Assembly (NCBI GenBank): GCA_035527715.1
Contig: DATKZY010000187.1
Coordinates: 49,388 to 113,387, forward strand
From: Planctomycetota bacterium
GTDB lineage: Bacteria > Planctomycetota > PUPC01 > DSUN01
DNA: 64,000 nucleotides
Reading direction: 5' to 3'
Position numbers and translations under genes: made by a program. The notes beneath the pieces are model-generated. The model made no database searches. It saw only the letters and a program-made list of their open reading frames with translations, and was not told where the DNA came from. Positions 17,973 to 45,343 of the stretch are shown piece after piece (the first letter of the stretch is position 1; each line of letters starts with the position of its first letter).

Positions 17973-17974
17973 GG

Positions 17975-18079: not shown

Positions 18080-19174
18080 GTGCTGCAATTCGTAGACGCG
18101 CTGCTCCGCGGCGGGGCCGAGCGGCTGCTCGTGGAGTTGGCTGTGCGCCTCGACCGCGCCCGCTTCGCCCCCGCCGTTGCGTGCTTCCGTCAGGAGGCGT
18201 TCGGCGCCGAGCTGGCCGCCGCGGGGCGCACGGTGCACGTCGTCCCAAAGCGGCGCGCGTTCGACGTCGGGTTGCTCTTCCGCCTCACGCGCCTGTTGCG
18301 CCGCGAGAAGATCGCCGCCGTGCACGCGCACGACCTCCAGTCGGCCACCTACGGCCTGCTGGCGGGGGTCGTGGCGAGGGTGCCCGTGGTGCTGACGGTG
18401 CACGGCCTGGGCATCTTCCGCCAGAAGCGCGCGGCCTGGCTTCTCCCGCGCCTGGGGCGATGGCTCGCCCGCGTGGTCTTCGTGGGCCACTGGCTCCAGC
18501 GCGCCGCGGCCGACGAGTTCGGCGTCCGTCCTCGCCGCCCGATGGTCGTGCACAATGGGGTGGACCTCTCCGCGTTCCAGCCCGGCCCGCCCGAGCCGGA
18601 GCTGCGGGCCGACATGCGGGTGGGGGAGGGGACACTGGTTGTCGGCACCGTGGGCAACCTGAGGGCGGTGAAGGACTATCCGTGCCTGCTTCGCGCCTTC
18701 GCCGTGGCCCGCGCGCGCGCGGCGAATGCGGTGCTGGTGTTCGTGGGCGAGGGGGCGGAGCGCCCGGCCCTCGAGGCCCTGGCGCGCGAGCTCGGCATCG
18801 AGCGCGCCGTGCGCTTCGCCGGGGCGAGGAGCGACGTGGCGCGCCTGCTGCGCCTCTTCGACATCTTCGCCCTCTCGTCGCAGACCGAGGGCATCTCGGT
18901 GGCGCTCCTCGAGGCCATGGCCACGGGCCTCCCCGCCGTCGTGACCCACACGGGCGGCAACCCCGAGGTCGCCATCGAGGGGCGGACGGCGCACCTCGTG
19001 CCCGTCGGCGACCCGGCGCAGATGGGCGAGGCGCTCGCCAGGCTCCTCGCCGACCCCGCTCGTCGCCGCGCCTGGGGGCAGGCCGCCCGCACGCGCGTCG
19101 AGGAGGAGTTCTCGCTCGACAGGATGGTGCGAGCCTATGAGGCCGTCTACGAGGAACTCACGCGGCGGCGCTGA
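18080..19174 (+). CDS. GT4-family glycosyltransferase
   Basis: From GTG 18080 the translation reads VLQFVDALLRGGAERLLVELA, a typical GT4 N-terminus. The C-terminal part has FVGEGAER...ALSSQTEGISVALLEAMATGLPAVVT. The track ORF starts at 17969 inside the repeat array, and an in-frame ATG at 18008 is also possible. Confidence 0.75.
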   Translation: MLQFVDALLRGGAERLLVELAVRLDRARFAPAVACFRQEAFGAELAAAGRTVHVVPKRRAFDVGLLFRLTRLLRREKIAAVHAHDLQSATYGLLAGVVARVPVVLTVHGLGIFRQKRAAWLLPRLGRWLARVVFVGHWLQRAAADEFGVRPRRPMVVHNGVDLSAFQPGPPEPELRADMRVGEGTLVVGTVGNLRAVKDYPCLLRAFAVARARAANAVLVFVGEGAERPALEALARELGIERAVRFAGARSDVARLLRLFDIFALSSQTEGISVALLEAMATGLPAVVTHTGGNPEVAIEGRTAHLVPVGDPAQMGEALARLLADPARRRAWGQAARTRVEEEFSLDRMVRAYEAVYEELTRRR

Positions 19175-19976
19175 CGAGGTCGCCGTCCTCACCTACCACG
19201 CTCTCGCGGCGCAGGCGGGCGAGCTGGAGCGTCGCCCGGCCGGCACGCGGCTCTACGTCTTCACCCTCGACGAGTTCCGCCGCCATCTCGACCACCTCGC
19301 CGCCGAGGGGTTCACAACAATCTTGATGGCCGACTTCGTGCAGTGGCACCAGGGTGAGGCGAAGGAACTGCCCGAGCGGCCGATCGTCGTGTCGTTCGAC
19401 GACGGCCACCGCAGCCAGGCCGAGCTCGCCCTGCCCGAGTTGCGGCAGCGCGGCCTGAAGGCCATCTTCTTCATCACCGCCGGCCGCGTCGGCGCCGGCG
19501 ACTGGGTCACGTGGGACCACGTGCGCGCGATGCGGGCCGCCGGCATGGAGGTCGGCTCCCACACCCTCACGCACCCGAGCCCTTCGACCCTGGCGCCCGA
19601 CGCGCTGCGCCGCGAGCTGGCCGAGTCGAAGCGCGTGCTCGAGTCGGGGCTGGGCGGGGCCGTGGACTTCGTGGCGTCGCCGACGGGCTACGACAGCCGC
19701 CACTTTGGCCGCCTCGCCCGCGAGGTCGGCTACAAGGCCGCTCTTCAGGGCGTGATCGGCCGCAACCGCCGCTCGACCGGCCTCTTCGCGCTGCGCCGCC
19801 TCGTGCTCAAGCGCTCCTACGGCTTCGAGCTGTTCTGCCGACTGGTGGACCCCGTGCGGCGCGCCTATCGGCCTCTTCGGATGCGGCAGGCGCTCCGCAA
19901 TGCGGCGCGCCGCGCGATCGGCGCGTCCGCCTACGAGGCCATCCGCAGCCTTGTCCTCAAGCGCCGGGGGGACTAG
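19137..19976 (+). CDS. Polysaccharide deacetylase (NodB/CE4) family protein
   Basis: IVVSFDDGHRS (catalytic Asp-Asp motif), HTLTHPS and a His-containing motif are present. The ATG at 19137 overlaps the previous gene by 38 nt, so the start is uncertain. Confidence 0.75.
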   Translation: MRPSTRNSRGGADEVAVLTYHALAAQAGELERRPAGTRLYVFTLDEFRRHLDHLAAEGFTTILMADFVQWHQGEAKELPERPIVVSFDDGHRSQAELALPELRQRGLKAIFFITAGRVGAGDWVTWDHVRAMRAAGMEVGSHTLTHPSPSTLAPDALRRELAESKRVLESGLGGAVDFVASPTGYDSRHFGRLAREVGYKAALQGVIGRNRRSTGLFALRRLVLKRSYGFELFCRLVDPVRRAYRPLRMRQALRNAARRAIGASAYEAIRSLVLKRRGD

Positions 19977-19979
19977 TCC

Positions 19980-21134
19980 GTGGCCATCGCGTTCTGGGTG
20001 CTTGTTGGCCTGGTCGGCTTCGCCTATGCGGGCTATCCGCTGCTGCTGGCGCTGCTGGTGCCGCTCTTCCGCCGGCCGCCCAGAAGCGCCGACGTGACGC
20101 CGAGCGTCACGCTGTTGGTGCCCGCCTACAACGAGGAGCGCTCCCTGGCCGCGAAGCTCGAGACCTGTCTCGCGCTCGACTACCCGCGCGAGAGGCTCCA
20201 GATCCTCGTGCTCAGCGACGGCTCGACCGATGGCACGGCCGGCGTCGCCGCCCGGTACGCCCGGCACGGCATCGGCCTCATGGCCTTCCAGGAGAACCGG
20301 GGGAAGCTGGCCGTGCTGCGCGACGGCCTGGCCGCGGCGACGGGCGAGATCGTGGCCTTCTCCGACGCCGCGTCGCGCCTGCGGCCCGACAGCCTGCGGC
20401 GGCTCGTTCGCGCGTTCGCTGACCCCGCGGTCGGTTGCGTGAGCGGCGTCTACCAGGTGCTGCGCTCCGAGGCTACGCGGCTCGGCGGCGAGGAGGGCTT
20501 CTACTGGAGGTACGAGACGTTTGTGAAGCGTTGCGAGAGCGACCTGGGGAGCATCCTGGGCGCCCACGGCTCGCTCTACGCCATCCGTCGCTCGTTGTGC
20601 CCCGACCTCGGCCGCATCCGCGTCAACGACGACTACGAGATCCCCGTCCACATTGTCGCGGGCGGCCACCGCGCCGTCTACGCCCCCGACGCGGTGGCGT
20701 GCGAGGAGGCGGCGGAGATGGGCGGCTTCGACCGCCGCGTGCGCATCGCCATCGGCAACTTCCGCCAAGTACGCCTCCTGGGCCTGCTGCTGTGGCCGCC
20801 GAGGCCGTGGCTCGTCTTCGGGTTCGTGGCCCACAAGCTCCTGCGGCTTCTGGGGCCGCTATGCCTTCTCGCGGCGCTCGCGCTCAATGTGTTCCTGCCG
20901 GGCCCCGTCTATCGCGTCACGTTGGCCGCGCAGGGGGCCTTCTACGTGGCGGCCGCGGCGGGGGGACTGGCCGGGCGGCGGCTGGCGCGGGCGCGGCTGT
21001 TGAAGCTGCCCTTCTACTTTTGTATGATCAATGCCGCCTACCTGGTTGGCCTGGTGCGTCTCCTGACACGGTCGGGGCGCGTGCGCTGGAACGCCCCGCG
21101 CGGCGGCAATTCCCCCGGCAGGGAAGGGGTCTGA
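19980..21134 (+). CDS. Membrane GT2-family glycosyltransferase (NodC/IcaA/cellulose-synthase-like processive type)
   Basis: It has an N-terminal TM, then TLLVPAYNEE, VLSDGSTDGT and FSDAASR, and a C-terminal TM bundle. It starts at GTG. Confidence 0.8.
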   Translation: MAIAFWVLVGLVGFAYAGYPLLLALLVPLFRRPPRSADVTPSVTLLVPAYNEERSLAAKLETCLALDYPRERLQILVLSDGSTDGTAGVAARYARHGIGLMAFQENRGKLAVLRDGLAAATGEIVAFSDAASRLRPDSLRRLVRAFADPAVGCVSGVYQVLRSEATRLGGEEGFYWRYETFVKRCESDLGSILGAHGSLYAIRRSLCPDLGRIRVNDDYEIPVHIVAGGHRAVYAPDAVACEEAAEMGGFDRRVRIAIGNFRQVRLLGLLLWPPRPWLVFGFVAHKLLRLLGPLCLLAALALNVFLPGPVYRVTLAAQGAFYVAAAAGGLAGRRLARARLLKLPFYFCMINAAYLVGLVRLLTRSGRVRWNAPRGGNSPGREGV

Positions 21135-21136
21135 CG

Positions 21137-21853
21137 TTGGGCTCTGTGGGGCAGAAAGTTCGCTCGCACTTTCACGCCACGGCGCGCGAGTTCGACGCGA
21201 TCTACAGCGGCGAGAAGGGCGCCGCGGCGCGCTGGCTCGACCGCCTGCTGCGCTGGGACATGTACGAGCGCTTCCGCCGCACCGTGGGCGAGTGCTCCGA
21301 GCCCGGGCTGCGCGTGCTCGACGTCGGCTGCGGCTCCGGCCGCTTCAGCGTCGCCGTGGCCAGGGCGGGGGCGAGCGAGGTGCTGGGCCTCGACTTCGCC
21401 GAGAACATGCTCGAGATCGCTCGGCAGCTCGCGCAAAGGGAGGGGGTGGGCGAGCGCTGCCGCTTCCTCGCCGGCGACTTCATGGAACGCACGTTCGACC
21501 AGCCGTTCGACGTCACGCTGGCGATCGGGCTGTTCGACTACGTGGCGGACTGCCGCCCCTTCCTGCGGAAGATGCGCCGGGTGAGCCGCAGGAAGGTGGT
21601 CGCCACGTTCCCGCGGCGCTGGACGTGGCGGGCACCCGTCCGCAAGCTGCGCCTGGCCCTGTGCGGCTGCCCCGTCTTCTTCTTCACCCGCTCTGAGGTC
21701 GAGCGGCTTATGGCCGACGCGGGGTTTGCCCGCTTTGCCATCCAGCGCATCGGTAAGATCTACTTCGTGGTCGGCCACTGCGAGGGGTCACATCTTCATT
21801 TGGCACCTGGCCGCCCGGTGCGAAATGAAGATGTGACCCCGGGGGCAAGCTGA
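21137..21853 (+). CDS. Class I SAM-dependent methyltransferase. Its C-terminal 20 codons are supplied by a palindromic element.
   Basis: VLDVGCGSGRFSVAVA is motif I. The start is TTG 21137 or GTG 21146, after GGGAAGGGG. The last ~20 codons (GSHLHLAPGRPVRNEDVTPG) are encoded by palindromic element copy A1. Confidence 0.65.
   Translation: MGSVGQKVRSHFHATAREFDAIYSGEKGAAARWLDRLLRWDMYERFRRTVGECSEPGLRVLDVGCGSGRFSVAVARAGASEVLGLDFAENMLEIARQLAQREGVGERCRFLAGDFMERTFDQPFDVTLAIGLFDYVADCRPFLRKMRRVSRRKVVATFPRRWTWRAPVRKLRLALCGCPVFFFTRSEVERLMADAGFARFAIQRIGKIYFVVGHCEGSHLHLAPGRPVRNEDVTPGAS
21784..21840. mobile_element. Palindromic element family A, copy A1, about 57 bp: GGGGTCACATCTTCATTTGGCAC-11 nt-GTGCGAAATGAAGATGTGACCCC
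   Basis: The 23-nt arms are complementary at 22 of 23 positions. The element is in-frame at the 3' end of the methyltransferase CDS. Confidence 0.8.
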
Positions 21854-23289
21854 TGCGCGTGTGCGTCGTGGTCAACGGCTTGGGCGAGGAGCGGGCGGCG
21901 CTGGCTTCCTACGTGCTGCGAACGCTGCTCGGAACCATGGGCCTGTCCCTTTCTCCGCGCCGAGCGGACGGCCTTCTTGTGAGCTATGGGTGCCCCATCC
22001 CTGCCGATGGCGCAGGGGTCGAGATCGCGTGCGGCGACCCTCCGACGCCTGAGGAGGCAATTCAGGTGCACCGCCGCGTGACGAGCGAGGGGCCATCCCT
22101 CCTCGTGGCGGAGGGGCCGCGGGTGCGCGTGACGGCGGACCTCGTGGGCGCGGCGGGCCTCTGGCTCGCCGGCGGCGAGGAGCGAGCGGAGGGCTTCGAC
22201 GCATTCGGCCGCGCGTGCGGCGCCGCGAGCCCCCGCGCCGCTGCCGGCCTGCTTCGCACCCCCATGGTCCACGACCTGATGAGCCTGTTGTGCGCGGCGC
22301 TCTCCCGAGCGGCTGAGGCGGCCGGGCTTTCGCTCTCGCGTGTTCCCGCGTGGCCCGAGGGCCGCAAGTTCGCCGTCCTCCTGAGCCACGACGTGGACCT
22401 CTGGCGCAAGCGAACCGCTCGGCAGCTTGCCAAGGAGACGGTGAAGAGCCTCGCGCGCCCCTGGCGACTGCCCGGTGTCGCACGGGCCTTCTGCTGCGGG
22501 CCGGACCCGTGGAGCGATCTCGACGCCATCGCCGACCTCGAGGGACGCTACGGCATGCACTCGACCTTCTTCGCGCTGCCTGGCCGCCCGAACCGGGTAG
22601 TGGATGGCGTGGGGGTGGTGAACTCCTATGGCGCGAGGGCTGGCGCCGTCGGGGAGGCGTTGCGCCGCCTCGTCGCCCGCGGCTGGGAGGTGGGCCTCCA
22701 CGGCAGCTTCGACTCGTATCGGTCGACCGAGGCCCTCGCCGGCGAGCGGCGCGACGTGGCGGCGCTCCTGGGGGTCACATCTTCATTTGCCACTTCTCGG
22801 CAAGTGCGAAATGAAGATGTGACCCTCGTCACGGGCTGCCGCCAGCACTTCCTGCGCTTCGAGCGACCCGTCACATGGCGTGCCCAGGCCGAGGCCGGCC
22901 TGCGCTACGACGCGACCCTCGGCTACCACGACACCGACGGCTACCGCGCCGGCTTCTCGTTCCCCTTCCGGCCCTTCGCGGGCGAGGAACTGCTGCTCCT
23001 GGAGCTCCCGCTCGCCGTGATGGACGGGGCGCTCCTCGAGCGACAGGGGCTCGACGCCGAGGCCGCCTGGGGCCTCGTTGAGGGGTATCTCAAGCGCACG
23101 GAGGCGGACGGCGCGATGCTGGGCCTCCTGTGGCACAACAACTACTTCTGCGACCTGGACGCGCCCGGCTACCGAGGCGTCTACGAGCGAGCGCTCGGCT
23201 GGACCCGCGACCACGGCGGCTGGGGCGCCTCGGCGCGCGAGATTGCCGAGTGGTGGGAGCGCCGCGCCGCGCTCCTCCAGGAGGGCTGA
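21853..23289 (+). CDS. Polysaccharide deacetylase (NodB/CE4-like) family protein with an N-terminal extension
   Basis: 478 aa. FAVLLSHDVDLW, LHGSFDSYRS and GCRQHFLRFERP are deacetylase-like motifs. Element copy A2 is inserted in-frame, encoding GVTSSFATSRQVRNEDVTLV. Confidence 0.75.
   Translation: MRVCVVVNGLGEERAALASYVLRTLLGTMGLSLSPRRADGLLVSYGCPIPADGAGVEIACGDPPTPEEAIQVHRRVTSEGPSLLVAEGPRVRVTADLVGAAGLWLAGGEERAEGFDAFGRACGAASPRAAAGLLRTPMVHDLMSLLCAALSRAAEAAGLSLSRVPAWPEGRKFAVLLSHDVDLWRKRTARQLAKETVKSLARPWRLPGVARAFCCGPDPWSDLDAIADLEGRYGMHSTFFALPGRPNRVVDGVGVVNSYGARAGAVGEALRRLVARGWEVGLHGSFDSYRSTEALAGERRDVAALLGVTSSFATSRQVRNEDVTLVTGCRQHFLRFERPVTWRAQAEAGLRYDATLGYHDTDGYRAGFSFPFRPFAGEELLLLELPLAVMDGALLERQGLDAEAAWGLVEGYLKRTEADGAMLGLLWHNNYFCDLDAPGYRGVYERALGWTRDHGGWGASAREIAEWWERRAALLQEG
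22771..22825. mobile_element. Palindromic element family A, copy A2
   Basis: GGGGTCACATCTTCATTTGCCAC-10 nt-GTGCGAAATGAAGATGTGACCC, in-frame inside a deacetylase gene. Confidence 0.8.
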
Positions 23290-23292
23290 GGC

Positions 23293-23904
23293 GTGGCGGC
23301 GTTGCTGAGGGCGGCCAGGCGGGTTGGCGGCATCATCCGGGTCCGGCGCCAGCAGCTCTTCGAGCTGACCGACCCGGCGGACATCCTTGCGGTGCAGCCG
23401 AAGCTGGACATCGCTATGGTGTTCGTGACCGAGGAGAATGTGGACCGCGTGACGGACTTCCGCGACGAGACCGTTGCCGCCGCGTTCCGCGGGTTCCTGC
23501 GCGAGGGGCAGCTCGGCGTCTACGCGGTCGCGGGCGGCCGCGTGGTCGGCCACGCCTGGGCGCTCGTGTGCGCCCGGGAGCGGTGCCGCGCCAACGGCTA
23601 CCTCGCGCTCCGCCAGGGCGAGGCCTGCATCCACTTCTGCCAGGTGCGGGAAGAGCGTCGCGGGCGGAACGTGTACCCCGCCATGCTCGTGGCCCTGTGC
23701 GGGCGGCTGTTCCAGGAGGCGAAGGTGCGCAGGGTCATCATTGACGCGGCGCTGGACAACACGGCCTCGCTCCGCGGCATCCGCAAGGTCGGCTTCCGGC
23801 CCACGGAGCGGCGGCTCTATGTCCAGCTCGCGGGCCGGCTGCTCCTCGGGAGACGGCTGACGGACGCCATCGGCGCGGCGCAACACGGCGGCTCAGGGGG
23901 CTAG
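23293..23904 (+). CDS. GNAT-family N-acetyltransferase
   Basis: 203 aa. The acetyl-CoA-binding-like segment is QVREERRGRNVYPAMLVAL. It starts at GTG after GGAGGGC. Confidence 0.65.
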   Translation: MAALLRAARRVGGIIRVRRQQLFELTDPADILAVQPKLDIAMVFVTEENVDRVTDFRDETVAAAFRGFLREGQLGVYAVAGGRVVGHAWALVCARERCRANGYLALRQGEACIHFCQVREERRGRNVYPAMLVALCGRLFQEAKVRRVIIDAALDNTASLRGIRKVGFRPTERRLYVQLAGRLLLGRRLTDAIGAAQHGGSGG

Positions 23905-23909
23905 ACGCT

Positions 23910-30210: not shown

Positions 30211-30275
30211 GGCAGGGGGCCGAAACAAATGGTACAATACTCCAGTGAGGGAGTCCTGGCCTGGGAAGCGACCGG

Positions 30276-32223: not shown

Positions 32224-32231
32224 GGACCGCG

Positions 32232-33173: not shown

Positions 33174-33186
33174 AACCTGCGGGAGG
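33158..33186. repeat. Palindromic element family B: 29-nt perfect hairpin CCTCCCGCAGGTT-tga-AACCTGCGGGAGG whose loop is the stop codon of the GT2 gene
   Basis: A 13-bp perfect stem. A second copy at 61262..61290 has a compensatory base-pair change. There is no U-tract, so it is not a classical intrinsic terminator. Confidence 0.75.
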
Positions 33187-33208
33187 CTGAGACAAGGGGT
33201 GAGCCAAC

Positions 33209-34420
33209 ATGCCGGACGCGCCCGCAGTCGTCCTGTATATGAGCTATCTCGGCCTCGGGCTCGTGCGGGCCTTGGGGCGCGAGGGCGTGCGCGTCTTCGC
33301 CCTCGACCCGCACCCCGACGCCTTGGGCATGAACTCCCGCTACTGCCAGCCCGTCGTCACCCCCGACATCAAGCAGGACGAGGCGCGCTACCTGGAGTTC
33401 CTGCTGGACTTCGGCCGCCGCCTGCCCGCGAAGGCCGTGCTCTATCCCACCGGCGATCCGACGGTGGTGCTCCTGTCGCGCGAGCGTGAGGTCCTGTCGC
33501 AGTACTACCATTTCGTCATGCCGGACCACGCGACCGTGCTGAAGCTGCTGACGAAGGACGGGCTGGACGCCGTGGCCCGCGAGCACGGCATCCCGGCCCC
33601 CCGCACGGCCATCCCCGCCGACCGCGCGGCGGTGGAGGCCGCGGCGCGCGACCTCCAGTTCCCCGTCCTTCTCAAGCCCGCGGAGAGCCACGCCTGGAAG
33701 GCGAAGGCCATCGTGGACCTCATTGGCGTCGGCACCAAGGTCATCCCGTGCTCCAGTCCAGAGGAGTTGCTCGTCCAGTACGACCGCATCGCCGCCCACA
33801 ACCCCAACGTGATTGTCCAGGAACTCGTCCCCGGCGAGGACGAGCGGCTGGTGTACTTCTGCTTCTACGTCGGGCGGGACGGCGAGCCACTGGGCGTCTT
33901 CGCGGGGCGGAAGCGCCGCGTGCTGCCGCCCGGCCTCGGCTCGGCCAGCTTCGCCGAGACCATGGCCGACCCCGCGCTCACCGACGTGGCGCTGCGGCTC
34001 CTCCGCGCCGTGGACTATCGCGGACTCGGCGGCGTCGAGTTCAAGCTCGACCCGCGCGACAATACGTACAAGCTCATCGAGTTCAACGTGCGGTTCGGCC
34101 TCTGGGACGCGTTGGGCGCCCGCTGCGGGGTGAACCTGGCGCACCTCGCCTGGCGCGATGCGCTCGGGCTGCCCGTCGAGCCGCAGGTCCGCTGCCGCAC
34201 GGGCGTCAAGTGGGTCTCGATGCAGCGCGACCTGTCGGCATTCCGGCTCTACCGTCGCCAGGGCAAGCTGACCACGTGGCGCTGGCTCCGCTCGCTCGCC
34301 GGCGAGAAGATGTGGGCCGTCCTGGCGTGGGACGACCTGGCCCCGTTCTTGTCGAGCGCCCCAGGCTACGTGTGGGGACTCCTCGCGCCGCGGCTGGGAA
34401 TCGGGCGGGGCAGGGTGTAG
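33209..34420 (+). CDS. ATP-grasp domain protein (carbamoyl-phosphate-synthase/D-Ala-D-Ala-ligase-like fold)
   Basis: 403 aa. The patterns VLLKPAESHAWKAK...VIVQELVPGED...GVEFKLDPRDNTYKLIEFNVRFG resemble the ATP-grasp B and C subdomains. Confidence 0.7.
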   Translation: MPDAPAVVLYMSYLGLGLVRALGREGVRVFALDPHPDALGMNSRYCQPVVTPDIKQDEARYLEFLLDFGRRLPAKAVLYPTGDPTVVLLSREREVLSQYYHFVMPDHATVLKLLTKDGLDAVAREHGIPAPRTAIPADRAAVEAAARDLQFPVLLKPAESHAWKAKAIVDLIGVGTKVIPCSSPEELLVQYDRIAAHNPNVIVQELVPGEDERLVYFCFYVGRDGEPLGVFAGRKRRVLPPGLGSASFAETMADPALTDVALRLLRAVDYRGLGGVEFKLDPRDNTYKLIEFNVRFGLWDALGARCGVNLAHLAWRDALGLPVEPQVRCRTGVKWVSMQRDLSAFRLYRRQGKLTTWRWLRSLAGEKMWAVLAWDDLAPFLSSAPGYVWGLLAPRLGIGRGRV

Positions 34421-34434
34421 AATGGGAGAAGGCA

Positions 34435-34560
34435 GTGCGAAATGTAAAATGCAAAAGGCAAAGTGCAAAATCCAGAACACACCTGGGGCTAGGGGAGTAA
34501 GCGACATCGGGGCTCACCATTTTGCCTTTTGCACTTTGCCTTCTGCATTTTGCATTGGGA
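34435..34560. promoter_or_regulatory. AT-rich long imperfect inverted repeat immediately upstream of the B12-radical-SAM gene. It could be an operator/promoter or an RNA hairpin.
   Basis: The arms are gtgcgaaatgtaaaatgcaaaaggcaaagtgcaaaatcc and cattttgccttttgcactttgccttctgcattttgcattggga, separated by about 45 nt. It is the only strongly AT-rich patch in a 70% GC locus. Confidence 0.4.
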
Positions 34561-34570
34561 TTTCTCCGCG

Positions 34571-35953
34571 ATGAAGGTTGCGCTGATCCAGCCGCCAATG
34601 GATTCGGACTACCCGCCGCTGAGCCTCGGCTCGCTGGCGGCGTATCTGGCGTCGAAGGGGCACACGCCGCGCGTCTTCGACCTCCAGGTGCCGGCGCAGC
34701 GGGCCGAATGGCCGCGGGCGTTGGCGGAGTTCGCGCCCCAGCTCGTCGGCGTCACGGCGATGACCCCCACCATCGCCGCCGCGGCCGAGGTCGGTCGCAC
34801 CTGCAAGCAGGCCCTCCCCGACGCCACACTCGTCCTCGGCGGCTATCACGTGAGCTTCCTGCCCGAGGAGACGATGCGGCGCTACCCTGCCTTCGACGTG
34901 GGGGTGATCGGCGAGGGCGAGGTGACGCTGCACGAGCTGGTCGAGGCACTGGACGCGGGCCGCGAGTTGGACCAGGTGAGCGGGCTGATCCTCCGCCGTG
35001 GCGACGGCCTGGTGACGACCCCGCCGCGCGCGCGCATCCAGGACCTGGACGCCCTGCCCTGGCCCCACGAGCACTACGACCTCGGCCACTACCTGTGGTA
35101 CGGCGGCTACACGGGGCGCTGGACGTTCAAGTGCGCGAGCGCCATCGTCTCGCGCGGCTGCCCGTTTCGCTGCCGCTTTTGCGCCTCGCAGCGCTTCTGG
35201 TCGAAGCGTTACCTCGTCGGCTCGCCCGAGCACGTGGTGGACGAGATGCGGTGGCTGGCCCGCCACGGCGCGCGGAGCGTGTACTTCCGCGACAGCACGT
35301 TCAACGTCAAGAGGAAATGGCTCCGCGAGTTCTGCGCGGCGAAGCGGCGGGCGGGCCTCCGCATGCGCTGGCTGTGCAACAGCCGCGTGGACACGCTGGA
35401 CGAGGAGCAGCTCACGCTGATGGCCGAGGCGGGCCTCGAGGCCCTCTACTTCGGCGTCGAGAGCGGCAGCCAGCGCATCCTCGATTACTACAACAAAGGC
35501 GTCACCGTCGAGCAGACCCGCGAGGCATTCCGCCTCTGCCACAAGTACCGCGTCGCCACGGCGGCCTACTTCATGATCGGCGCGCCCATCGAGACGCGGG
35601 CCGACATCGAGGAGAGCCGCAAGCTCGCCCGCGAGCTGCGGGCGAAGTACACCTACTGGTTCATCTACACGCCGCTGCCGGGCGCCCCGCTTTACGACGA
35701 CTTCGTCGAGCGGGGCTACAAGCCCGACTTCGAGCACTTCGTCTTCAGCCGTGCGACGATTCCCGTGGGCGACCTGGCCCCCGAGGAGCTGGAGGCCCTC
35801 CACCACCAGCTCGTCGCCGAGTTCCGCCGCAAGACCACGCGGGGCGATGTCTGGCGGCGACGCTGGGAGATTCTCCGGTCCGTCCGCTCCTGGCGCGACG
35901 TGCGCCACCTGGGCCGCAAGCTCGCGCGGCGAATGGGGCTAGGTGGCCAGTAG
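34571..35953 (+). CDS. B12-binding domain radical SAM protein (class B radical SAM)
   Basis: The N-terminal B12-binding-like region is MKVALIQPP...VGVTAMT. SRGCPFRCRFC is the CxxxCxxC motif. The track ORF start at 34529 lies inside the AT-rich repeat, so the ATG at 34571 is preferred. Confidence 0.85.
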   Translation: MKVALIQPPMDSDYPPLSLGSLAAYLASKGHTPRVFDLQVPAQRAEWPRALAEFAPQLVGVTAMTPTIAAAAEVGRTCKQALPDATLVLGGYHVSFLPEETMRRYPAFDVGVIGEGEVTLHELVEALDAGRELDQVSGLILRRGDGLVTTPPRARIQDLDALPWPHEHYDLGHYLWYGGYTGRWTFKCASAIVSRGCPFRCRFCASQRFWSKRYLVGSPEHVVDEMRWLARHGARSVYFRDSTFNVKRKWLREFCAAKRRAGLRMRWLCNSRVDTLDEEQLTLMAEAGLEALYFGVESGSQRILDYYNKGVTVEQTREAFRLCHKYRVATAAYFMIGAPIETRADIEESRKLARELRAKYTYWFIYTPLPGAPLYDDFVERGYKPDFEHFVFSRATIPVGDLAPEELEALHHQLVAEFRRKTTRGDVWRRRWEILRSVRSWRDVRHLGRKLARRMGLGGQ

Positions 35954-36166
35954 TGGGCAAGTCAAGATGCTCACCCCCTCCCGTCCGGAGTGGTCTGAGC
36001 GCCTTGACTCAGCTCCACAACGAGGGTTCAGGAGAGCCACATGTCATTGCTGTGTATATGGTTGTGGCTCCGTCCGCGGCGCCGGTCGTCGGCCCGCCAA
36101 GATGTTCACCCCCTATTGCGCGCGCGTGAGCATCTTGAACACCTTGAGTTCGAGGTCTGACCCCGA

Positions 36167-37525
36167 ATGCGCGTGACGCTGGTGCAACCCGACACGGGCG
36201 GGAGCTATCCGCCGCTGAGCCTGGGCTACCTGGCGGCCTATGCCGCCGCGCGGGGCCACGAGGCGCGGATTCTCGACCTCCAGGTGCCCGCGCAGCGCGA
36301 GCGCTGGGAAGAGCTTCTCGTCGAGGCTCGGCCCGACCTCGTCGGCTTCACGGCCCTCACGCCGAGCATTCGCCAGGCGGGTGAGCTGGCCGCCCGCGCC
36401 CGCGAGCTTCTCCCCAGCGCGAAGCTCATCGTCGGCGGATTTCACGCCTCGATGGAGCCTGAACAGACGCTTCGCGACTATCCCGCCTTCGACTACCTGT
36501 GCATTGGCGAAGGCGAGGAAACGCTGGCCGAGCTGTGCGGGCGGCTCCAGGACGGCCAGTCGCCGGAAGGCATCGCGGGCCTCGCGTGGCGGAAGGGCGA
36601 GGCCGTCGAGCTCGGGCCGCCGCGGGGCCGGATCGCCGACCTCGATCTTCTGCCGAGCCCCCATGGCTTCTACGGCCTCGAGCACTACCTCGAATCGGGC
36701 AGTTTCACCTACCAGTATGGCTATCGCTGCGCGTCGGTCATCGCGTCGCGGGGTTGCCCGTTTCGCTGCCGGTTCTGCTCGATTCCGGGCAAGTACGTTC
36801 ATCAGTCGGTCGAGCGCCTGGCCGACGAGATTGCGGAGCTGCTTCGGCGGGGGGCCGACGGCGTGTTCTTCCGCGACAGCACGTTCACGATCCGGCGCGA
36901 CTGGGTGCTGGCCTTCTGCGAGGCCGTGCGCCAGCGGCGGATGCGGTTCCACTGGATCGCGAACGCGCGGCCGGACCTCGTGGACGACGAGCTGCTGGCG
37001 GCGATGAAGCGCGCGGGCTGCTTCGCCCTCTGCTACGGCGTCGAGAGCGGCCGCGACAGCGTGCTCGACTACTATGGCAAGGACCACACGGTCGAGGACA
37101 CCCGCCGCGCCGTGGCCGCGACGAAGCGCGCGGGCATTCGTGTCATCGCCTACTTCATGCTCGGCGCGCCCATCGAGACGCGGGCCGACATCGAGGCGAG
37201 CCACCAGTTCGCCCGCGAGCTGGGCGCCGAGCGCACGATCTGGAAGATCTTCGCCCCGCTCCCCGGCTGCGAGATCTACAACGAGCTGAAGGCCAAAGGC
37301 GTGAAGCTGGACTTCGATGCGATTCGCACCGACCGGGCCTCGTATCCGCTGGCAGACATGACCGAGGCGGAGATCGAGCAGCGGTTCCGCGAGCTACAGG
37401 CAGAGTTCGCCTACACCCGCGGCAGCCGCCTCCGCGTCTTCTGGCGTCAGCTTCGCCGCGTCCGCTCGCCCCGCGACGCCTGGCGCCTCGCCCGCCGGGT
37501 GGCAGCCAGGCTGCTTCGTGGGTAG
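36167..37525 (+). CDS. B12-binding domain radical SAM protein, tandem paralog of the 34571..35953 gene
   Basis: MRVTLVQPD...SRGCPFRCRFCSIPGKY. The domain order matches the upstream paralog and the two are about 50% identical by eye. Confidence 0.85.
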   Translation: MRVTLVQPDTGGSYPPLSLGYLAAYAAARGHEARILDLQVPAQRERWEELLVEARPDLVGFTALTPSIRQAGELAARARELLPSAKLIVGGFHASMEPEQTLRDYPAFDYLCIGEGEETLAELCGRLQDGQSPEGIAGLAWRKGEAVELGPPRGRIADLDLLPSPHGFYGLEHYLESGSFTYQYGYRCASVIASRGCPFRCRFCSIPGKYVHQSVERLADEIAELLRRGADGVFFRDSTFTIRRDWVLAFCEAVRQRRMRFHWIANARPDLVDDELLAAMKRAGCFALCYGVESGRDSVLDYYGKDHTVEDTRRAVAATKRAGIRVIAYFMLGAPIETRADIEASHQFARELGAERTIWKIFAPLPGCEIYNELKAKGVKLDFDAIRTDRASYPLADMTEAEIEQRFRELQAEFAYTRGSRLRVFWRQLRRVRSPRDAWRLARRVAARLLRG

Positions 37526-37630
37526 GATGGTTGGATGAATGGATGACTGGATGATTGTCAGAGGAGCCTTGCCGCCTTCCCATTCATCCATCCATCCACC
37601 CATCCATTCATCCTCCTCCAGGAGGCGCAT

Positions 37631-38647
37631 GTGAGCCGCTGGGCCAGGCAACTCGTCGTCACCGTGTCCGTCGAGCCCGACGATCCGTCGGTCGTGGGCC
37701 GGTCGGGAGCGTATCGCTCACTCGACGGGCTTGAGCGGTTCCACGAGCTGTGCCGACGCTACGGCGTGCGGCCGACGTATCTCGCCACGTACTCGGCGGC
37801 GGGGGAGACCCGGTGCGTGGACCTCTTCCGCTCCTGCGGCGACGAGGCCGAGGTCGGGGCGCACCTGCACCCCGAGGAGGTGCCGCCCATCGCCGAGGGC
37901 GAGCGTGGCAACCACACGCTGCGCCCGAGCGCGGTCGAGCCCGGCCGCCTGCGGGAAAAGCTGGCCAACCTCGTCGAGCGCGTGGCGGAGGCGGCGGGGC
38001 GGCGGCCCACCGCGTATCGCGCCGGCTTCTTCGACCTCACGCCCAGCCAGGTCGTCGCGCTTGTTGGGCTGGGGATCGAAGCCGACTCCAGCCTTGGCCC
38101 CCTGGAAAAGGTCGGCGGCAAGTACCCGTTTCTTCGCGTTCCCTTTGAGCCATACGTCGCTGACCCCGCGAACCCGTGCACAGAGGCTCACGCGTCACGC
38201 GTCACGCGTCACGCATCACTCGTCGAGGTTCCCCTCACCAGCGTCTTCCGCCGTCCTTTTCCCAGGCGGCTTTTTGGTGTATACTTCGGGATGCCGGGTG
38301 TCGTGCGAGGGGCGCTGCGCGCGCTCGGCGCCGCCGAGGTGCTGCGGTTCCGCCCGGCAGTGGCCTCCGCCGACGACTTGCTGGCCGTGTGCCGGCGCAC
38401 GGAGCGGCTGGGCGTGCCCGCGGTCATGACCATTCACTCGAACGAGTTGTGGCCGGGCACGAGCGCGGGGTCACATCTTCATTTGGCACCTGGCGGCGAA
38501 GTGCGAAATGAAGATGTGACCCCCGAGGCGGCCTGTGCCGCCTACTTCGAGCGCCTCGAGCGGGTGTTCGCGCATTGCCAGGCGGACGGCTGGGCGAGCC
38601 GCACGCTCACGGAGATCGCCCGCGCAACCCGGGGGAATGCGGGATGA
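37631..38647 (+). CDS. Polysaccharide deacetylase-like protein (LTVDTE-type paralog of 26115..27221). It carries palindromic element A4 and an in-frame GTCACGC heptamer array.
   Basis: VVTVSVEPDD...HLHPEE. Element A4 encodes GSHLHLAPGGEVRNEDVTPE. The array at 38187..38214 encodes AHASRVTRHAS. Confidence 0.65.
   Translation: MSRWARQLVVTVSVEPDDPSVVGRSGAYRSLDGLERFHELCRRYGVRPTYLATYSAAGETRCVDLFRSCGDEAEVGAHLHPEEVPPIAEGERGNHTLRPSAVEPGRLREKLANLVERVAEAAGRRPTAYRAGFFDLTPSQVVALVGLGIEADSSLGPLEKVGGKYPFLRVPFEPYVADPANPCTEAHASRVTRHASLVEVPLTSVFRRPFPRRLFGVYFGMPGVVRGALRALGAAEVLRFRPAVASADDLLAVCRRTERLGVPAVMTIHSNELWPGTSAGSHLHLAPGGEVRNEDVTPEAACAAYFERLERVFAHCQADGWASRTLTEIARATRGNAG
38187..38214. repeat. Heptanucleotide array CTCACGC GTCACGC GTCACGC ATCACTC, in-frame in a CDS
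   Basis: The same GTCACGC array recurs at 63815..63842 inside the last gene. Confidence 0.8.
38467..38523. mobile_element. Palindromic element family A, copy A4
   Basis: GGGGTCACATCTTCATTTGGCAC-11 nt-GTGCGAAATGAAGATGTGACCCC. It is nearly identical to A1. Confidence 0.8.
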
Positions 38648-45216: not shown

Positions 45217-45343
45217 TCAGAGTCGGCCCATTGACTCCGGGGGGCGGTCGGGGTAGTCTATTGTGTTAGTGCGATGGCGGGGCGGGTCAGAAGGCGCGGA
45301 GCCTGGCGTGACACCCGTAACACGAAACCCGGAACAAGGCATC

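What the first reader, a model, noticed from the sequence alone, without database searches (positions are those of the whole stretch)
19137..38647. Heavily elaborated EPS tailoring toolkit: seven deacetylase paralogs, FemAB-like GNATs, ATP-grasp, a SPASM radical SAM, two tandem B12-radical SAM enzymes and four SAM methyltransferases in one operon-like array
Most genes from 19137 to 38647 are modification enzymes rather than backbone glycosyltransferases:
- NodB-type deacetylases at 19137, 21853, 26115, 27206, 29248 and 37631, plus the XrtA-type at 45344.
- FemAB-like GNATs, which typically transfer amino acids from aminoacyl-tRNA.
- An ATP-grasp ligase.
- A SPASM-domain radical SAM (31156).
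- Two adjacent class-B (cobalamin-dependent) radical SAM paralogs (34571, 36167). These enzymes usually catalyse C-methylation on unactivated carbons.

This predicts a polysaccharide that is partially N-deacetylated, aminoacylated and C- or O-methylated. Having two B12-rSAM copies side by side preceded by an AT-rich inverted repeat is unusual for a glycan locus. They are better known from antibiotic and RiPP pathways.
Basis: inference. Interest (0 to 1): 0.55.

Follow-up and report, generated by a model that had tools for sequence, protein, structure and literature searches.

The report
Radical-SAM tailoring cassette in polysaccharide locus
An uncultured Planctomycetota bacterium carries a real, tightly packed polysaccharide-decoration gene array whose core (B12-radical SAM enzymes, an ATP-grasp ligase, a FemAB-like transferase and an odd deacetylase) recurs next to exosortase genes in several phyla, which points to an uncharacterised radical-chemistry sugar modification and not to a peptide antibiotic.

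Summary
In 19137-38647 all 18 genes lie on the + strand. Four are glycosyltransferases and 14 are tailoring enzymes:
- six NodB-fold deacetylases, plus the XrtA-type one at 45308. Four are solid Pfam hits, one is marginal, and two were shown only by predicted fold.
- two SAM methyltransferases, not four
- one FemAB-like and one plain GNAT
- one SPASM radical SAM (rSAM)
- one ATP-grasp
- two B12-rSAM paralogs (48% identical)

The glycan-tailoring reading is supported. The peptide (RiPP) alternative is not. In a 76%-identical relative, the ATP-grasp, both B12-rSAM genes and the next gene are 10-15 nt apart. The spacer ORFs in the window have non-coding composition.

Full-length B12-rSAM homologs at 39% identity or more sit beside an ATP-grasp homolog wherever flanking DNA is available. 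They usually also sit with a FemAB-like gene, the 338-aa deacetylase-fold gene, GT2s and exosortase genes. This holds in Planctomycetota, Scalinduaceae, Nitrospirota and Desulfobacterota.

The "AT-rich inverted repeat" is one of several lineage-specific hairpin repeats and is absent in relatives.

The chemistry is inferred only (C-methylation, HpnJ- or AprD4-like rearrangement, aminoacylation).

Bonus: a 57-nt palindromic element is inserted in-frame in four genes here.

The parts
19137..19976 (+). NodB/CE4 deacetylase with canonical SFDD and HTLTH motifs and no obvious signal peptide
   Evidence: PF01522 at 80.7 bits; motifs. Weak orthologs (25-28%) sit at the end of the module in L011 and L016.
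19980..21134 (+). GT2 glycosyltransferase
   Evidence: PF00535 at 79.8 bits. Orthologs of 32-37% lie next to the B12-rSAM in the deltaproteobacterial loci L017, L041 and L007.
21131..21853 (+). Class-I SAM methyltransferase; its C-terminus is encoded by a palindromic element
   Evidence: Methyltransf_31/25/11; element at 21785-21839 read as GSHLHLAPGRPVRNEDVTPGAS*.
21853..23289 (+). 478-aa protein with a divergent NodB-fold deacetylase domain and an N-terminal domain that is DUF7033 in homologs
   Evidence: No Pfam hit. VimE deacetylase at 63.7 bits on the C-terminus only. Homologs named PgdA/CDA1 or carrying PF23019. Profile against PDB gives 3rxz at 7e-6. AF2 pLDDT 92.9; Foldseek top hits are CE4 deacetylases.
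23293..23904 (+). Ordinary GNAT N-acyltransferase
   Evidence: Acetyltransf_8/3/1.
23910..24929 (+). FemAB-like GNAT (Acetyltransf_6)
   Evidence: PF13480 at 46.1 bits; TIGR03019 at 37.9 bits against a 260 cut-off.
24926..26128 (+). GT4 glycosyltransferase
   Evidence: Glycos_transf_1 at 127 bits.
26115..27221 (+). Divergent NodB-like protein (VDTE and HLHP motifs, C-terminal TM helix) carrying an in-frame palindromic element
   Evidence: PF01522 at 25.6 bits (cut-off 23.1); sequence; element at 26223-26277.
27206..28285 (+). PgaB/IcaB-like NodB deacetylase with a split domain and TFDD and HTMSH motifs
   Evidence: PF01522 at 113.6 bits; PgaB at 91.7 bits; motifs.
28278..29261 (+). GT2 glycosyltransferase (member of the conserved module)
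   Evidence: PF00535 at 125 bits; orthologs of 39-44% in Scalinduaceae and Nitrospirota modules.
29248..30210 (+). PgaB/IcaB-like NodB deacetylase (TFDD, HTRTH), a 33% paralog of 27206
   Evidence: PF01522 at 81.2 bits.
30276..31163 (+). Class-I SAM methyltransferase, replaced by a formyltransferase in L005
   Evidence: Methyltransf_11 at 70 bits; L005 has Formyl_trans_N at this position.
31156..32223 (+). Radical SAM/SPASM enzyme
   Evidence: PF04055 plus PF13186. Best NCBIfam hit 106.7 bits, far below the 380 cut-off. Best solved relatives are BtrN, GDGT-MAS and BlsE. Conserved at 71-93% in L005, L009 and L014.
32232..33173 (+). GT2 glycosyltransferase (member of the conserved module)
   Evidence: PF00535 at 104 bits; orthologs of 44-45% in L011 and L016.
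33209..34420 (+). ATP-grasp ligase, the constant partner of the B12-rSAM clade
   Evidence: CPSase_L_D2 at 32 bits and ATPgrasp_Ter; PRK12767-like. Homologs of 27-82% lie beside the B12-rSAM in L003-L011, L014-L018 and L041.
34441..34556 (.).
   Evidence: z = -6.3; 48% GC. Absent in L005; different hairpins at the same site in L009 and L010. No Rfam match.
34571..35953 (+). B12-binding radical SAM enzyme, copy a
   Evidence: PF02310 plus PF04055. CxxxCxxC invariant (C197, C201, C204). BchE at 218.7 bits against a 481 cut-off. PDB best hit AprD4. Orthologs at 60-89%.
35954..36166 (.). 213-nt structured non-coding spacer between the two B12-rSAM genes
   Evidence: Homologous to the L010 spacer with stem-preserving changes; absent in L005 (15 nt); replaced in L009. 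ORFs in it have GC3 of 0.65.
36167..37525 (+). B12-binding radical SAM enzyme, copy b (48% identical to copy a)
   Evidence: Orthologs of 64-87% in L009-L018.
37508..37614 (.). Hairpin built from GGATGAAT 8-mer units
   Evidence: z = -4.5. The same kind of hairpin lies between B12a and B12b in L009.
37631..38647 (+). 338-aa divergent NodB-fold protein that travels with the B12-rSAM; carries an in-frame palindromic element
   Evidence: No Pfam or NCBIfam hit. Remote homologs carry PF01522. AF2 pLDDT 91.6; Foldseek top hits 3rxz, 3qbu and ArnD. Orthologs of 52-76% follow B12b in L009, L010, L013, L014 and L016. Element at 38468-38522.
3130..4446 (+). Second FemAB-like GNAT (Acetyltransf_6).
   Evidence: PF13480 at 110.7 bits. 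Orthologs of 62-67% lie between ATP-grasp and B12b in L013, L014 and L018, and of 31-32% in the L011 and L016 modules.
45308..46258 (+). XrtA-system polysaccharide deacetylase
   Evidence: TIGR03006 at 354.8 bits against a 276.2 cut-off; PF01522 plus DUF3473.
46623..48191 (+). Exosortase, with EpsI just downstream (domain from about 48240)
   Evidence: PF09721 at 180.6 bits; TIGR02602 at 139 bits (cut-off 105.55); the XrtA model scores 150 bits against a 208 cut-off. EpsI TIGR02914 at 67 bits against 42.8.

Best explanation
**What it is.** The region is the tailoring section of one large Wzx/Wzy-type, exosortase-linked polysaccharide locus. The host is an uncultured Planctomycetota bacterium.

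**The conserved cassette.** Inside the region sits a horizontally shared cassette:
- two GT2 glycosyltransferases (28278, 32232)
- an ATP-grasp ligase (33209)
- one or two B12-binding radical SAM enzymes (34571, 36167)
- a divergent NodB-fold hydrolase (37631)
- a FemAB-like acyl/aminoacyl transferase (its ortholog here is displaced to 3130)
- usually a canonical NodB deacetylase

**Inferred mechanism.** All steps below are inferred. The steps happen in the cytoplasm, because radical SAM and ATP-grasp enzymes need SAM, ATP and a reductant, and the deacetylases show no clear signal peptides. The substrate is the lipid-linked repeat unit or its nucleotide-sugar precursors, before the Wzx flippase (5577) acts.
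1. The GT2s add N-acetyl-hexosamine residues.
2. NodB-fold enzymes remove specific N-acetyl groups to expose amines.
3. The ATP-grasp, FemAB-like and GNAT enzymes re-acylate or aminoacylate these amines, or amidate a uronate carboxyl.
4. The B12-rSAM enzymes carry out a radical step on the sugar or its new substituent. This could be C-methylation, or an HpnJ/AprD4-type rearrangement or dehydration of a de-N-acetylated amino sugar.
5. The SPASM rSAM acts as a BtrN/BlsE-like sugar oxidoreductase or decarboxylase.
6. The two SAM methyltransferases add O- or N-methyl groups.

**What is shown.** Gene content, fold assignments, operon-like packing, cross-phylum synteny, and the absence of a precursor-peptide gene.
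For: **Locus context**
- Wzx flippase
- Wzy/O-antigen-ligase-like protein, NDP-sugar epimerase and GT4
- priming phosphoglycosyltransferase at 50030
- XrtA-type deacetylase, exosortase and EpsI

**Packing**
- Overlaps or gaps of at most 65 nt from 15495 to 34420. Larger gaps occur only where hairpin repeats sit.
- In L005/L006 the same genes are 1-15 nt apart.

**Synteny of the B12-rSAM clade**
- Planctomycetota L009, L010, L013, L014 and L018
- Ca. Scalinduaceae L011: GT2, AcT6, GT2, B12a, B12b, ATP-grasp, NodB
- Thermodesulfovibrionia L016: GT2, AcT6, GT2, B12b, 338-aa homolog, ATP-grasp, NodB, at 50-64% identity
- Desulfobacteraceae and Deltaproteobacteria L015, L017, L041 and L007/8, next to exosortase, EpsI and the XrtA deacetylase

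**A discrete clade.** Scores drop from 367 to 280 bits after 59 clusters.

**Enzyme evidence**
- Canonical NodB metal and catalytic motifs in 19137, 27206 and 29248.
- NodB fold for 21853 and 37631. ArnD, which acts on a lipid-linked sugar, is among the top structural matches.
- Sugar-acting precedents among the nearest characterised relatives: AprD4, BtrN and BlsE, and HpnJ at 141-162 bits.
- HpnI (GT), HpnK (deacetylase) and HpnJ (rSAM) act in that order on a GlcNAc residue (PMC13459092).
Against: - No product chemistry or enzyme activity is known for any member. All family matches are far below curated cut-offs, so the reaction type cannot be assigned.
- Cytoplasmic location of the deacetylases is judged by eye from their N-termini only. 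PgaB and IcaB, their nearest named relatives, act outside the cytoplasm.
- Co-transcription through the three hairpin-containing spacers (150, 213 and 105 nt) is not shown for this genome.
- No PEP-CTERM substrate is encoded in the window, and the exosortase misses the XrtA cut-off.
- The literature library held nothing on this association, so absence of prior description is only as good as that library.
Confidence: 0.65

Rival explanations
1. The radical SAM genes (SPASM plus two B12-rSAM) form a separate RiPP-type sub-cluster. It would modify a short ribosomal precursor peptide encoded in one of the spacers. The ATP-grasp would act as a peptide macrocyclase.
For: - The second-best NCBIfam match of both B12-rSAMs is the RiPP enzyme ApyD (172-175 bits), and RiPP C-methyltransferase models also hit.
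- SPASM enzymes often mature peptides.
- The spacers of 150, 213 and 105 nt contain ORFs of 39-77 codons.
Against: - The spacer ORFs have GC3 of 0.45-0.65, against 0.83-0.94 for genes.
- The spacers are absent in L005/L006, where the gaps are 10-15 nt, and they differ in L009.
- No peptide ORF is conserved.
- All RiPP family scores are far below their cut-offs (172-175 against 750).
- Across phyla the conserved neighbours are GT2, NodB-fold, FemAB-like and exosortase genes.
Confidence: 0.03
2. The cassette modifies a protein and not a free polysaccharide. Candidates are an exosortase-sorted surface protein or the conserved 1607-aa membrane-anchored protein downstream. The product would be a heavily decorated glycoprotein, or the rSAMs would act on protein side chains.
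For: - Exosortases process proteins.
- A conserved block of a 135-aa membrane protein, a 1607-aa protein and a trypsin-like protease always lies between the cassette and the exosortase in Planctomycetota.
- Three PMT_2-type GT-C enzymes lie upstream.
- A Wzy_C/O-glycosylation-ligase-like gene is at 15495.
Against: - In Scalinduaceae and Nitrospirota the cassette occurs without the 1607-aa, protease and exosortase block in the flanks available.
- No PEP-CTERM protein is encoded in the window.
- The Wzx flippase and the priming phosphoglycosyltransferase fit a lipid-linked oligosaccharide pathway. Such a pathway could still end on a protein.
Confidence: 0.15
3. The B12-rSAM pair works on a lipid, as in hopanoid or ladderane-type tailoring, and is only co-located with the glycan genes.
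For: Both copies hit HpnJ, HpnR and the anammox 'lipid biosynthesis B12-binding/radical SAM' model (116-162 bits). Orthologs occur in anammox Scalinduaceae and Brocadiia.
Against: - Scores are far below the cut-offs (360-650).
- No squalene, hopene or fatty-acid genes are in any of the loci.
- The clade also occurs in non-anammox Desulfobacterota and Nitrospirota, always with ATP-grasp, NodB-fold and GT2 genes.
Confidence: 0.05

Closest known systems
XrtA/PEP-CTERM exosortase-associated exopolysaccharide loci (the TIGR03006, TIGR03019, TIGR03088 and TIGR03013 gene set)
   Same: - Exosortase plus EpsI.
- An XrtA-type deacetylase that passes its equivalog cut-off.
- FemAB-like gene, GT4/GT2 set, priming phosphoglycosyltransferase, Wzx, and a Wzy/O-antigen-ligase-like gene.
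   Different: - The exosortase is below the XrtA cut-off (150 against 208).
- The FemAB-like, stp2-like and EpsB_2-like genes are all below their cut-offs.
- No PEP-CTERM protein lies in the window.
- The locus adds three radical SAM enzymes, an ATP-grasp and five more NodB-fold genes. I did not find this combination described.
HpnI-HpnK-HpnJ branch of hopanoid side-chain biosynthesis
   Same: The logic is GT2, then de-N-acetylase, then a radical SAM enzyme acting on the exposed glucosamine residue (PMC13459092). NCBIfam names the HpnJ model only 'hopanoid biosynthesis associated radical SAM protein'. HpnJ is among the top three NCBIfam matches of both copies.
   Different: - Scores of 141-162 bits against a 577.6 cut-off, so these are not HpnJ orthologs.
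- No hopanoid genes.
- The deacetylases are NodB-fold.
- The partners include ATP-grasp and FemAB-like enzymes.
- The HpnJ reaction itself is only proposed.
Aminoglycoside and nucleoside sugar-tailoring radical SAM enzymes (AprD4, BtrN, BlsE; GenK from my own knowledge)
   Same: These are the best solved-structure sequence matches of the B12-rSAM (AprD4, 1e-21) and of the SPASM enzyme (BtrN, BlsE). All act on amino-sugar or uronate substrates.
   Different: - Those enzymes act on small-molecule antibiotics, not on polysaccharide repeat units.
- Identity is low and partial.
- AprD4 is a dehydratase and BtrN a dehydrogenase, so they argue against assuming methylation.
PgaB/IcaB-type poly-N-acetylglucosamine de-N-acetylases
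   Same: 19137, 27206 and 29248 hit PgaB/IcaB models best and keep the Asp-Asp and His-x-x-x-His motifs.
   Different: - Only the N-terminal part of PgaB is matched (63-92 bits against 322).
- No clear signal peptides.
- There are three distinct ancient paralogs (at most 33-40% identity), each with its own orthologs in relatives.
ATP-grasp amidoligases of capsule biosynthesis (for example the Campylobacter jejuni HS:2 glucuronamide-forming domain; recalled from my own knowledge, not tested here)
   Same: An ATP-grasp enzyme embedded in a surface-polysaccharide locus, expected to form an amide bond on a sugar.
   Different: No sequence comparison was made. The window protein matches only generic 'carbamoyl-phosphate-synthase-like' ATP-grasp models (51 bits against 218).
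Rickettsia palindromic elements (for the element noticed in passing; recalled from my own knowledge)
   Same: A short palindromic repeat inserted in-frame into unrelated protein-coding genes. It adds a peptide that maps to a low-confidence stretch of each predicted structure.
   Different: Different sequence, much shorter (57 nt), high-GC Planctomycetota host. No relation to RPEs was tested.

Membership tests
Class B (cobalamin-dependent) radical SAM enzymes | N-terminal B12-binding (Rossmann-like) domain followed by a radical SAM core | tested here: met
   PF02310 at 75.3 and 89.5 bits; PF04055 at 91.6 and 89.7 bits for 34571 and 36167.
Class B (cobalamin-dependent) radical SAM enzymes | CxxxCxxC [4Fe-4S] motif | tested here: met
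   C197, C201 and C204 are invariant in 24 clade members; the motif RGCPFRCRFC is visible in both copies.
Class B (cobalamin-dependent) radical SAM enzymes | Actual cobalamin binding and methyl transfer to an unactivated carbon | not testable with these tools
   The nearest relatives include non-methylating enzymes (BchE, HpnJ, AprD4, OxsB).
Any named B12-rSAM equivalog (BchE, ApyD, HpnJ, HpnR, PhpK, TIGR04295 and others) | Score at or above the curated NCBIfam cut-off | tested here: not met
   Best hit is BchE at 218.7 and 178 bits against 481.35. TIGR04295 scores 88.9 and 79.6 against 400.
Radical SAM/SPASM enzymes | Radical SAM core plus a C-terminal SPASM auxiliary-cluster domain | tested here: met
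   PF04055 at 51.7 bits; PF13186 at 52.9 bits.
RiPP biosynthetic cluster | A conserved precursor-peptide gene next to the maturases | tested here: not met
   Spacer ORFs are non-coding by GC3. The spacers are absent in L005/L006. No conserved small ORF was found.
NodB / carbohydrate esterase 4 deacetylases | PF01522 domain above the gathering score | tested here: met
   Met for 19137, 27206, 29248, 45263 and (marginally, 25.6 against 23.1) 26115. Not met for 21853 and 37631.
NodB / carbohydrate esterase 4 deacetylases | NodB (beta/alpha) barrel fold | tested here: met
   Tested only for 21853 and 37631. AF2 pLDDT 92.9 and 91.6. Foldseek top hits 3rxz, 3qbu, ArnD, PuuE, chitin and peptidoglycan deacetylases, E 1e-10 to 1e-4, target-normalised TM 0.55-0.68.
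NodB / carbohydrate esterase 4 deacetylases | Asp-Asp (motif 1) and His-x-x-x-His (motif 2) metal and catalytic residues | tested here: inconclusive
   Canonical in 19137, 27206 and 29248. 37631 and 26115 have EPDD or VDTE plus an HLHP variant. 21853 has HDVD with separate conserved His residues. Activity is untested.
XrtA/PEP-CTERM exopolysaccharide system | Exosortase of the XrtA type | tested here: not met
   TIGR03109 at 150.4 bits against a 208 cut-off. The generic exosortase model TIGR02602 passes (139.1 against 105.55).
XrtA/PEP-CTERM exopolysaccharide system | XrtA-system polysaccharide deacetylase (TIGR03006) | tested here: met
   354.8 bits against 276.2.
XrtA/PEP-CTERM exopolysaccharide system | FemAB-family XrtA-associated protein (TIGR03019) | tested here: not met
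   23910 scores 37.9 bits against 260.35. 3130 has no TIGR03019 hit.
XrtA/PEP-CTERM exopolysaccharide system | PEP-CTERM sorting-signal proteins | tested here: not met
   A motif scan of all six frames found no credible PEP-CTERM tail in the 64-kb window. The rest of the genome was not available.

The most novel reading that the evidence does not exclude
The set of B12-rSAM, ATP-grasp, FemAB-like gene and 338-aa NodB-fold gene (plus two GT2s) is a horizontally mobile cassette. It would install a radical-derived modification on an aminoacylated, de-N-acetylated sugar of exosortase-linked exopolysaccharides. The modification could be C-methylation, or ring contraction or dehydration. This would be the first cobalamin-type radical SAM chemistry shown on a bacterial polysaccharide repeat unit. 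The roughly 59-cluster clade would define a new functional family.
Probability: 0.3. Interest if true: 0.7.

Novelty: new variant of a known kind. Interest (0 to 1): 0.5.

Why it matters
Cobalamin-type radical SAM enzymes are known from antibiotics, cofactors, lipids and RiPPs. A dedicated clade wired into polysaccharide assembly would extend radical chemistry to cell-surface glycans. It would also predict unusual sugars in the biofilm matrix of Planctomycetota, anammox bacteria, Nitrospirota and sulfate reducers. These could be C-methylated, rearranged or amino-acid-bearing.

The cross-phylum cassette gives enzymologists a compact, testable gene set: ATP-grasp, B12-rSAM, a NodB-fold protein and a FemAB-like protein.

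Seven NodB-fold genes in one locus, of which the three canonical paralogs tested are at most 33-40% identical to each other, suggest site-specific cycles of deacetylation and re-acylation. That differs from the bulk partial deacetylation seen in PNAG.

Tried and rejected
- **Precursor peptide in the three spacers: rejected.** Composition is non-coding and the spacers are absent in relatives.
- **Cobalamin riboswitch or any known RNA in or around the rSAM genes: none.** The gathering-threshold scan was empty. The E-value scan gave only spurious microRNA-like hairpin matches.
- **Intrinsic terminator or sigma-70 promoter at the spacers: none by consensus**. The scan has limited value for Planctomycetota.
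- **Direct Pfam, NCBIfam or PDB sequence assignment of 21853 and 37631: failed**. It took homolog profiles and structure prediction.
- **BLASTP paralogy of those two ORFs to the other NodB genes: none.** The only cross-hit, 21131 against 37631, is the shared palindromic-element peptide.
- **Literature search for B12-rSAM in exosortase, EPS or capsule loci.** Five queries returned nothing relevant. The Geobacter hits were coincidental.
- **PEP-CTERM proteins in the window: none**.
- **Lipid (ladderane or hopanoid) role: considered and judged unlikely** from gene context.
- **Not used:** the exhaustive representative-protein search, which would mostly return generic class-B rSAMs; and a third fold search.

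Full report
**Source and gene map**

The window is about 70% GC, so raw ORF lists are noisy. Third-position GC (GC3) analysis shows a single continuous + strand array from about 15.5 to 48.2 kb. The exact B12-rSAM protein is found on JGI metagenome contig Ga0307379_10000229, which is 98.6 kb. NCBI names it as a Planctomycetota MAG protein.

Pfam and NCBIfam scans show that the whole window is one large surface-polysaccharide locus:
- three PMT_2-type GT-C proteins (1446, 8074, 12890)
- a FemAB-like GNAT (3130)
- a Wzx flippase (5577)
- a SAM methyltransferase (7045)
- a UbiA prenyltransferase (10460) and a DUF362 protein (11623)
- a Wzy_C/O-antigen-ligase-like protein (15495)
- an NDP-sugar epimerase/dehydratase (17001)
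- a GT4 (17969)
- the finding's region itself
- a conserved block of a 135-aa membrane protein, a 1607-aa protein and a trypsin-like protease
- an XrtA-type deacetylase, an exosortase and EpsI
- a PilZ protein and a priming phosphoglycosyltransferase (50030)

**Checking the observation**

The range 19137-38647 holds 18 genes. Four are glycosyltransferases (19980 GT2, 24926 GT4, 28278 GT2, 32232 GT2). Fourteen are tailoring enzymes. The statement that most genes are modification enzymes is therefore correct.

Deacetylases:
- 19137, 27206 and 29248 are solid PF01522 hits and keep the canonical (S/T)FDD and HTxxH motifs.
- 26115 is marginal, at 25.6 bits against a 23.1 cut-off.
- 45263/45308 passes the XrtA-deacetylase equivalog model (354.8 bits against 276.2).

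The ORFs at 21853 (478 aa) and 37631 (338 aa) have no Pfam hit and no direct PDB sequence hit. Several lines still place them in the NodB fold:
- Their remote homologs carry PF01522 or are annotated as PgdA/CDA1 deacetylases.
- Profiles built from homolog alignments hit polysaccharide and chitin deacetylase structures.
- AlphaFold models built from those alignments are confident (pLDDT 91.6 and 92.9). They match CE4/NodB-fold proteins first: 3rxz, 3qbu, ArnD, PuuE, insect chitin deacetylases and PdaC.

- Only two class-I SAM methyltransferases lie in the range (21131, 30276).
- Only 23910 is FemAB-like. 23293 is an ordinary GNAT.

Also confirmed:
- the SPASM rSAM (31156)
- the ATP-grasp (33209)
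- both B12-binding rSAM genes (34571, 36167)

The two B12-rSAM proteins are 48% identical over their full length.

**Are the radical SAM genes part of the glycan pathway?**

I looked for both.

The only sizeable gaps in the array are the three spacers around the B12-rSAM genes: 150, 213 and 105 nt. Each holds a strongly folding hairpin structure (z-scores -6.3, -3.0 and -4.5). The ORFs in the spacers have GC3 of 0.45-0.65, against 0.83-0.94 for the flanking genes.

In the relative L005/L006 (76% identity) the gene order is the same:
- The gaps ATP-grasp/B12a and B12a/B12b are 10 and 15 nt.
- B12b and the homolog of the 338-aa protein are called 1 nt apart.

In L009 the corresponding sites carry different hairpins. 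In L010 the B12a-B12b spacer is homologous to the window's, with stem-preserving changes. No Rfam family matches, including cobalamin riboswitches. No consensus promoter or terminator is found there.

The spacers are therefore optional, non-coding, lineage-specific repeats. The RiPP reading is rejected as far as sequence analysis can go.

**A conserved cassette**

The B12-rSAM search gives a discrete clade: 59 clusters at 367 bits or more, then a drop to 280 bits. I examined genomic context by exact-protein look-ups, a scan of one genome per species, and tblastn of all window proteins against the fetched loci.

Full-length homologs of 39% identity or more lie beside a homolog of the window's ATP-grasp in every locus with enough flank. 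The contexts are:
- **Ca. Scalinduaceae (L011):** GT2, AcT6, GT2, B12a, B12b, ATP-grasp, NodB.
- **Thermodesulfovibrionia MAG (L016):** GT2, AcT6, GT2, B12b, 338-aa homolog, ATP-grasp, NodB, at 50-64% identity to the window proteins. That is high for different phyla and suggests horizontal transfer.
- **Desulfobacteraceae and Deltaproteobacteria (L015, L017, L041, L007/8):** a single-copy B12-rSAM (about 40% identical to both window copies) next to an exosortase, EpsI or an XrtA deacetylase (L015, L017, L007/8; none of these three was seen in the L041 flanks), with a FemAB-like gene (L017, L041, L007/8), a 338-aa-like gene (L015, L017, L041), a GT2 (L017, L041, L007/8) and an ATP-grasp (all).

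In three Planctomycetota/Brocadiia loci (L013, L014, L018) the FemAB-like gene lies directly upstream of B12b, and in L014 and L018 directly downstream of the ATP-grasp. That is the place B12a occupies in the window. This gene is the ortholog of the window's 3130, not of 23910.

More distant homologs, below about 38% identity and mostly archaeal, lose this context.

The functional unit is therefore the ATP-grasp, the FemAB-like gene, one or two B12-rSAMs and the 338-aa NodB-fold protein, plus two GT2s and a NodB. The tandem duplication is an old variation within that unit, since both copies have 64-66% orthologs in Scalinduaceae.

**Likely mechanism (inferred)**

Radical SAM and ATP-grasp enzymes need cytoplasmic cofactors. 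The deacetylases show no obvious signal peptides (judged by eye). The locus has a Wzx flippase and a priming phosphoglycosyltransferase.

The most economical model is tailoring of the lipid-linked repeat unit, or of its nucleotide sugars, before export:
1. The GT2s add HexNAc.
2. NodB-fold enzymes expose specific amines.
3. The ATP-grasp, FemAB-like and GNAT enzymes re-acylate or aminoacylate them, or amidate a uronate.
4. The rSAM enzymes carry out radical steps.
5. The SAM methyltransferases add O- or N-methyl groups. A formyltransferase takes the place of one of them in L005.

The best family matches are BchE (a cyclase), ApyD and HpnJ, all far below their cut-offs. The best solved relative is AprD4, an aminoglycoside diol dehydratase, followed by TsrM, TokK, CysS and OxsB.

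The hopanoid branch is a close logical precedent. There, HpnI (a GT2) adds GlcNAc, HpnK deacetylates it, and the radical SAM enzyme HpnJ is proposed to contract the glucosamine ring (PMC13459092).

The SPASM enzyme's nearest solved relatives are BtrN, GDGT-MAS and BlsE. BtrN and BlsE act on sugars.

**Rivals**
- A RiPP sub-cluster: about 0.03.
- Protein (glycoprotein) modification: about 0.15. It is kept alive by the exosortase, the conserved 1607-aa protein plus protease block, the GT-C enzymes and the O-glycosylation-ligase-like gene.
- Lipid tailoring: about 0.05.

**Comparison with known systems and novelty**

The frame is an exosortase-linked EPS locus. It is not a bona fide XrtA system by NCBIfam cut-offs:
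- exosortase at 150 bits against 208
- FemAB model at 38 bits against 260
- stp2 model at 239 bits against 409
- no PEP-CTERM protein in the window

No curated family captures the B12-rSAM clade. Five literature queries found no description of B12-rSAM enzymes in exosortase, EPS or capsule loci. That library is incomplete.

I rate this as a new variant of a known kind. The locus type is ordinary. The conserved radical-SAM/ATP-grasp cassette within it is uncharacterised and specific.

**Noticed in passing**

A 57-nt near-perfect palindrome occurs four times in the window. Its sequence is GGGGTCACATCTTCATTTGGCACC...GGTGCGAAATGAAGATGTGACCCC. All four copies are within the finding's range, and each lies inside a gene and is read through in-frame.

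Ortholog alignments show that the encoded 15-16 residues are insertions. In the AF2 models they map to the lowest-confidence stretches.

Of 63 complete copies analysed, at least 32 are embedded in long, high-GC3 ORFs. All but the 54-nt window copy at 22772 use the single stop-free frame, giving GSHLH(L/F)A..G..V(R/P)NEDVTP. This behaviour resembles that of Rickettsia palindromic elements and deserves its own follow-up.

Noticed in passing
window 21785-21839, 22772-22825, 26223-26277, 38468-38522 (degenerate half-copy at 45189-45205); L057-L136: A 57-nt near-perfect palindromic repeat is inserted inside four unrelated genes and read through in-frame. Three copies encode GS(H/P)LH(L/F)A..G..V(R/P)NEDVTP; the 54-nt copy at 22772 is read in a hybrid frame. 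Orthologs lack the 15-16 residues, and the insert maps to the lowest-confidence stretch of each AF2 model. At least 32 of 63 analysed copies sit in long coding ORFs, and all but the 54-nt window copy use the one stop-free frame. This looks like Rickettsia-palindromic-element behaviour in Planctomycetota.
   Followed up: yes
window 34441-34556, 37508-37614, 17975-18092; L009 and L010 spacers; homologs P0127, P0130, P0135, P0138, P0201: Hairpins whose arms are tandem 7- or 8-mer units (TGCAAAA, GGATGAAT, GCGGAAT) occupy intergenic sites. They differ in place and sequence between close relatives. In homologous proteins similar simple repeats are translated in-frame as inserts such as KSEIRNPKSE or SEIGNRKSEI. 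The N-terminus of window ORF 26115 (MEQSEIGNRR) looks the same.
   Followed up: partly
window 35954-36166 and L010 11420-11670: The 213-nt spacer between B12a and B12b is conserved with L010 at about 65% identity, and the two stems keep their pairing through changes on both sides. It is absent in L005 and replaced in L009. No Rfam match. It could be a structured mRNA-processing or stability element.
   Followed up: partly
L007/L008 9175-16855 (GCA_040961345 / GCA_040960975): In a distant exosortase locus the single B12-rSAM (40% identity) is flanked by these genes:
- phosphosulfolactate synthase (ComA)
- a LarA-N-like protein
- a Ddl-like ligase
- 2-phosphosulfolactate phosphatase
- the ATP-grasp homolog
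- a CheR-type methyltransferase

This hints at a sulfolactate- or hydroxy-acid-derived substituent on the polysaccharide.
   Followed up: no
window 1446-3158 and 8074-14836: Three PMT_2-type GT-C glycosyltransferases (1446, 8074, 12890), a UbiA-family prenyltransferase (10460) and a DUF362 protein (11623) lie in the same + strand array, upstream of the finding. The UbiA plus GT-C pairing recalls lipid-linked pentose donor pathways such as mycobacterial arabinan. That comparison is from my own knowledge and was not tested.
   Followed up: no
window 38644-39051, 39059-43882, 43956-44786: A 135-aa two-TM protein, a 1607-aa protein and a trypsin-like protease form a block conserved in Planctomycetota between the cassette and the exosortase. 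The 1607-aa protein is 76% GC, has 4-5 N-terminal TM segments, an Fn3-like C-terminus and no Pfam family. The 135-aa protein resembles the N-terminus of the 1607-aa protein.
   Followed up: partly
window 46623-48856: The exosortase ORF has a roughly 225-residue N-terminal extension rich in GC palindromes (46917-47076). The EpsI domain starts just after the exosortase stop, in another frame. Several NCBIfam exosortase models score similarly (XrtA, XrtW, XrtV, XrtD), and none of the type-specific models reaches its cut-off.
   Followed up: no
window 49022-49723 and 54824-56965: A PilZ-domain protein lies just before the priming glycosyltransferase, which suggests c-di-GMP control. A heparinase II/III-like protein lies downstream and could be a polysaccharide lyase.
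   Followed up: no
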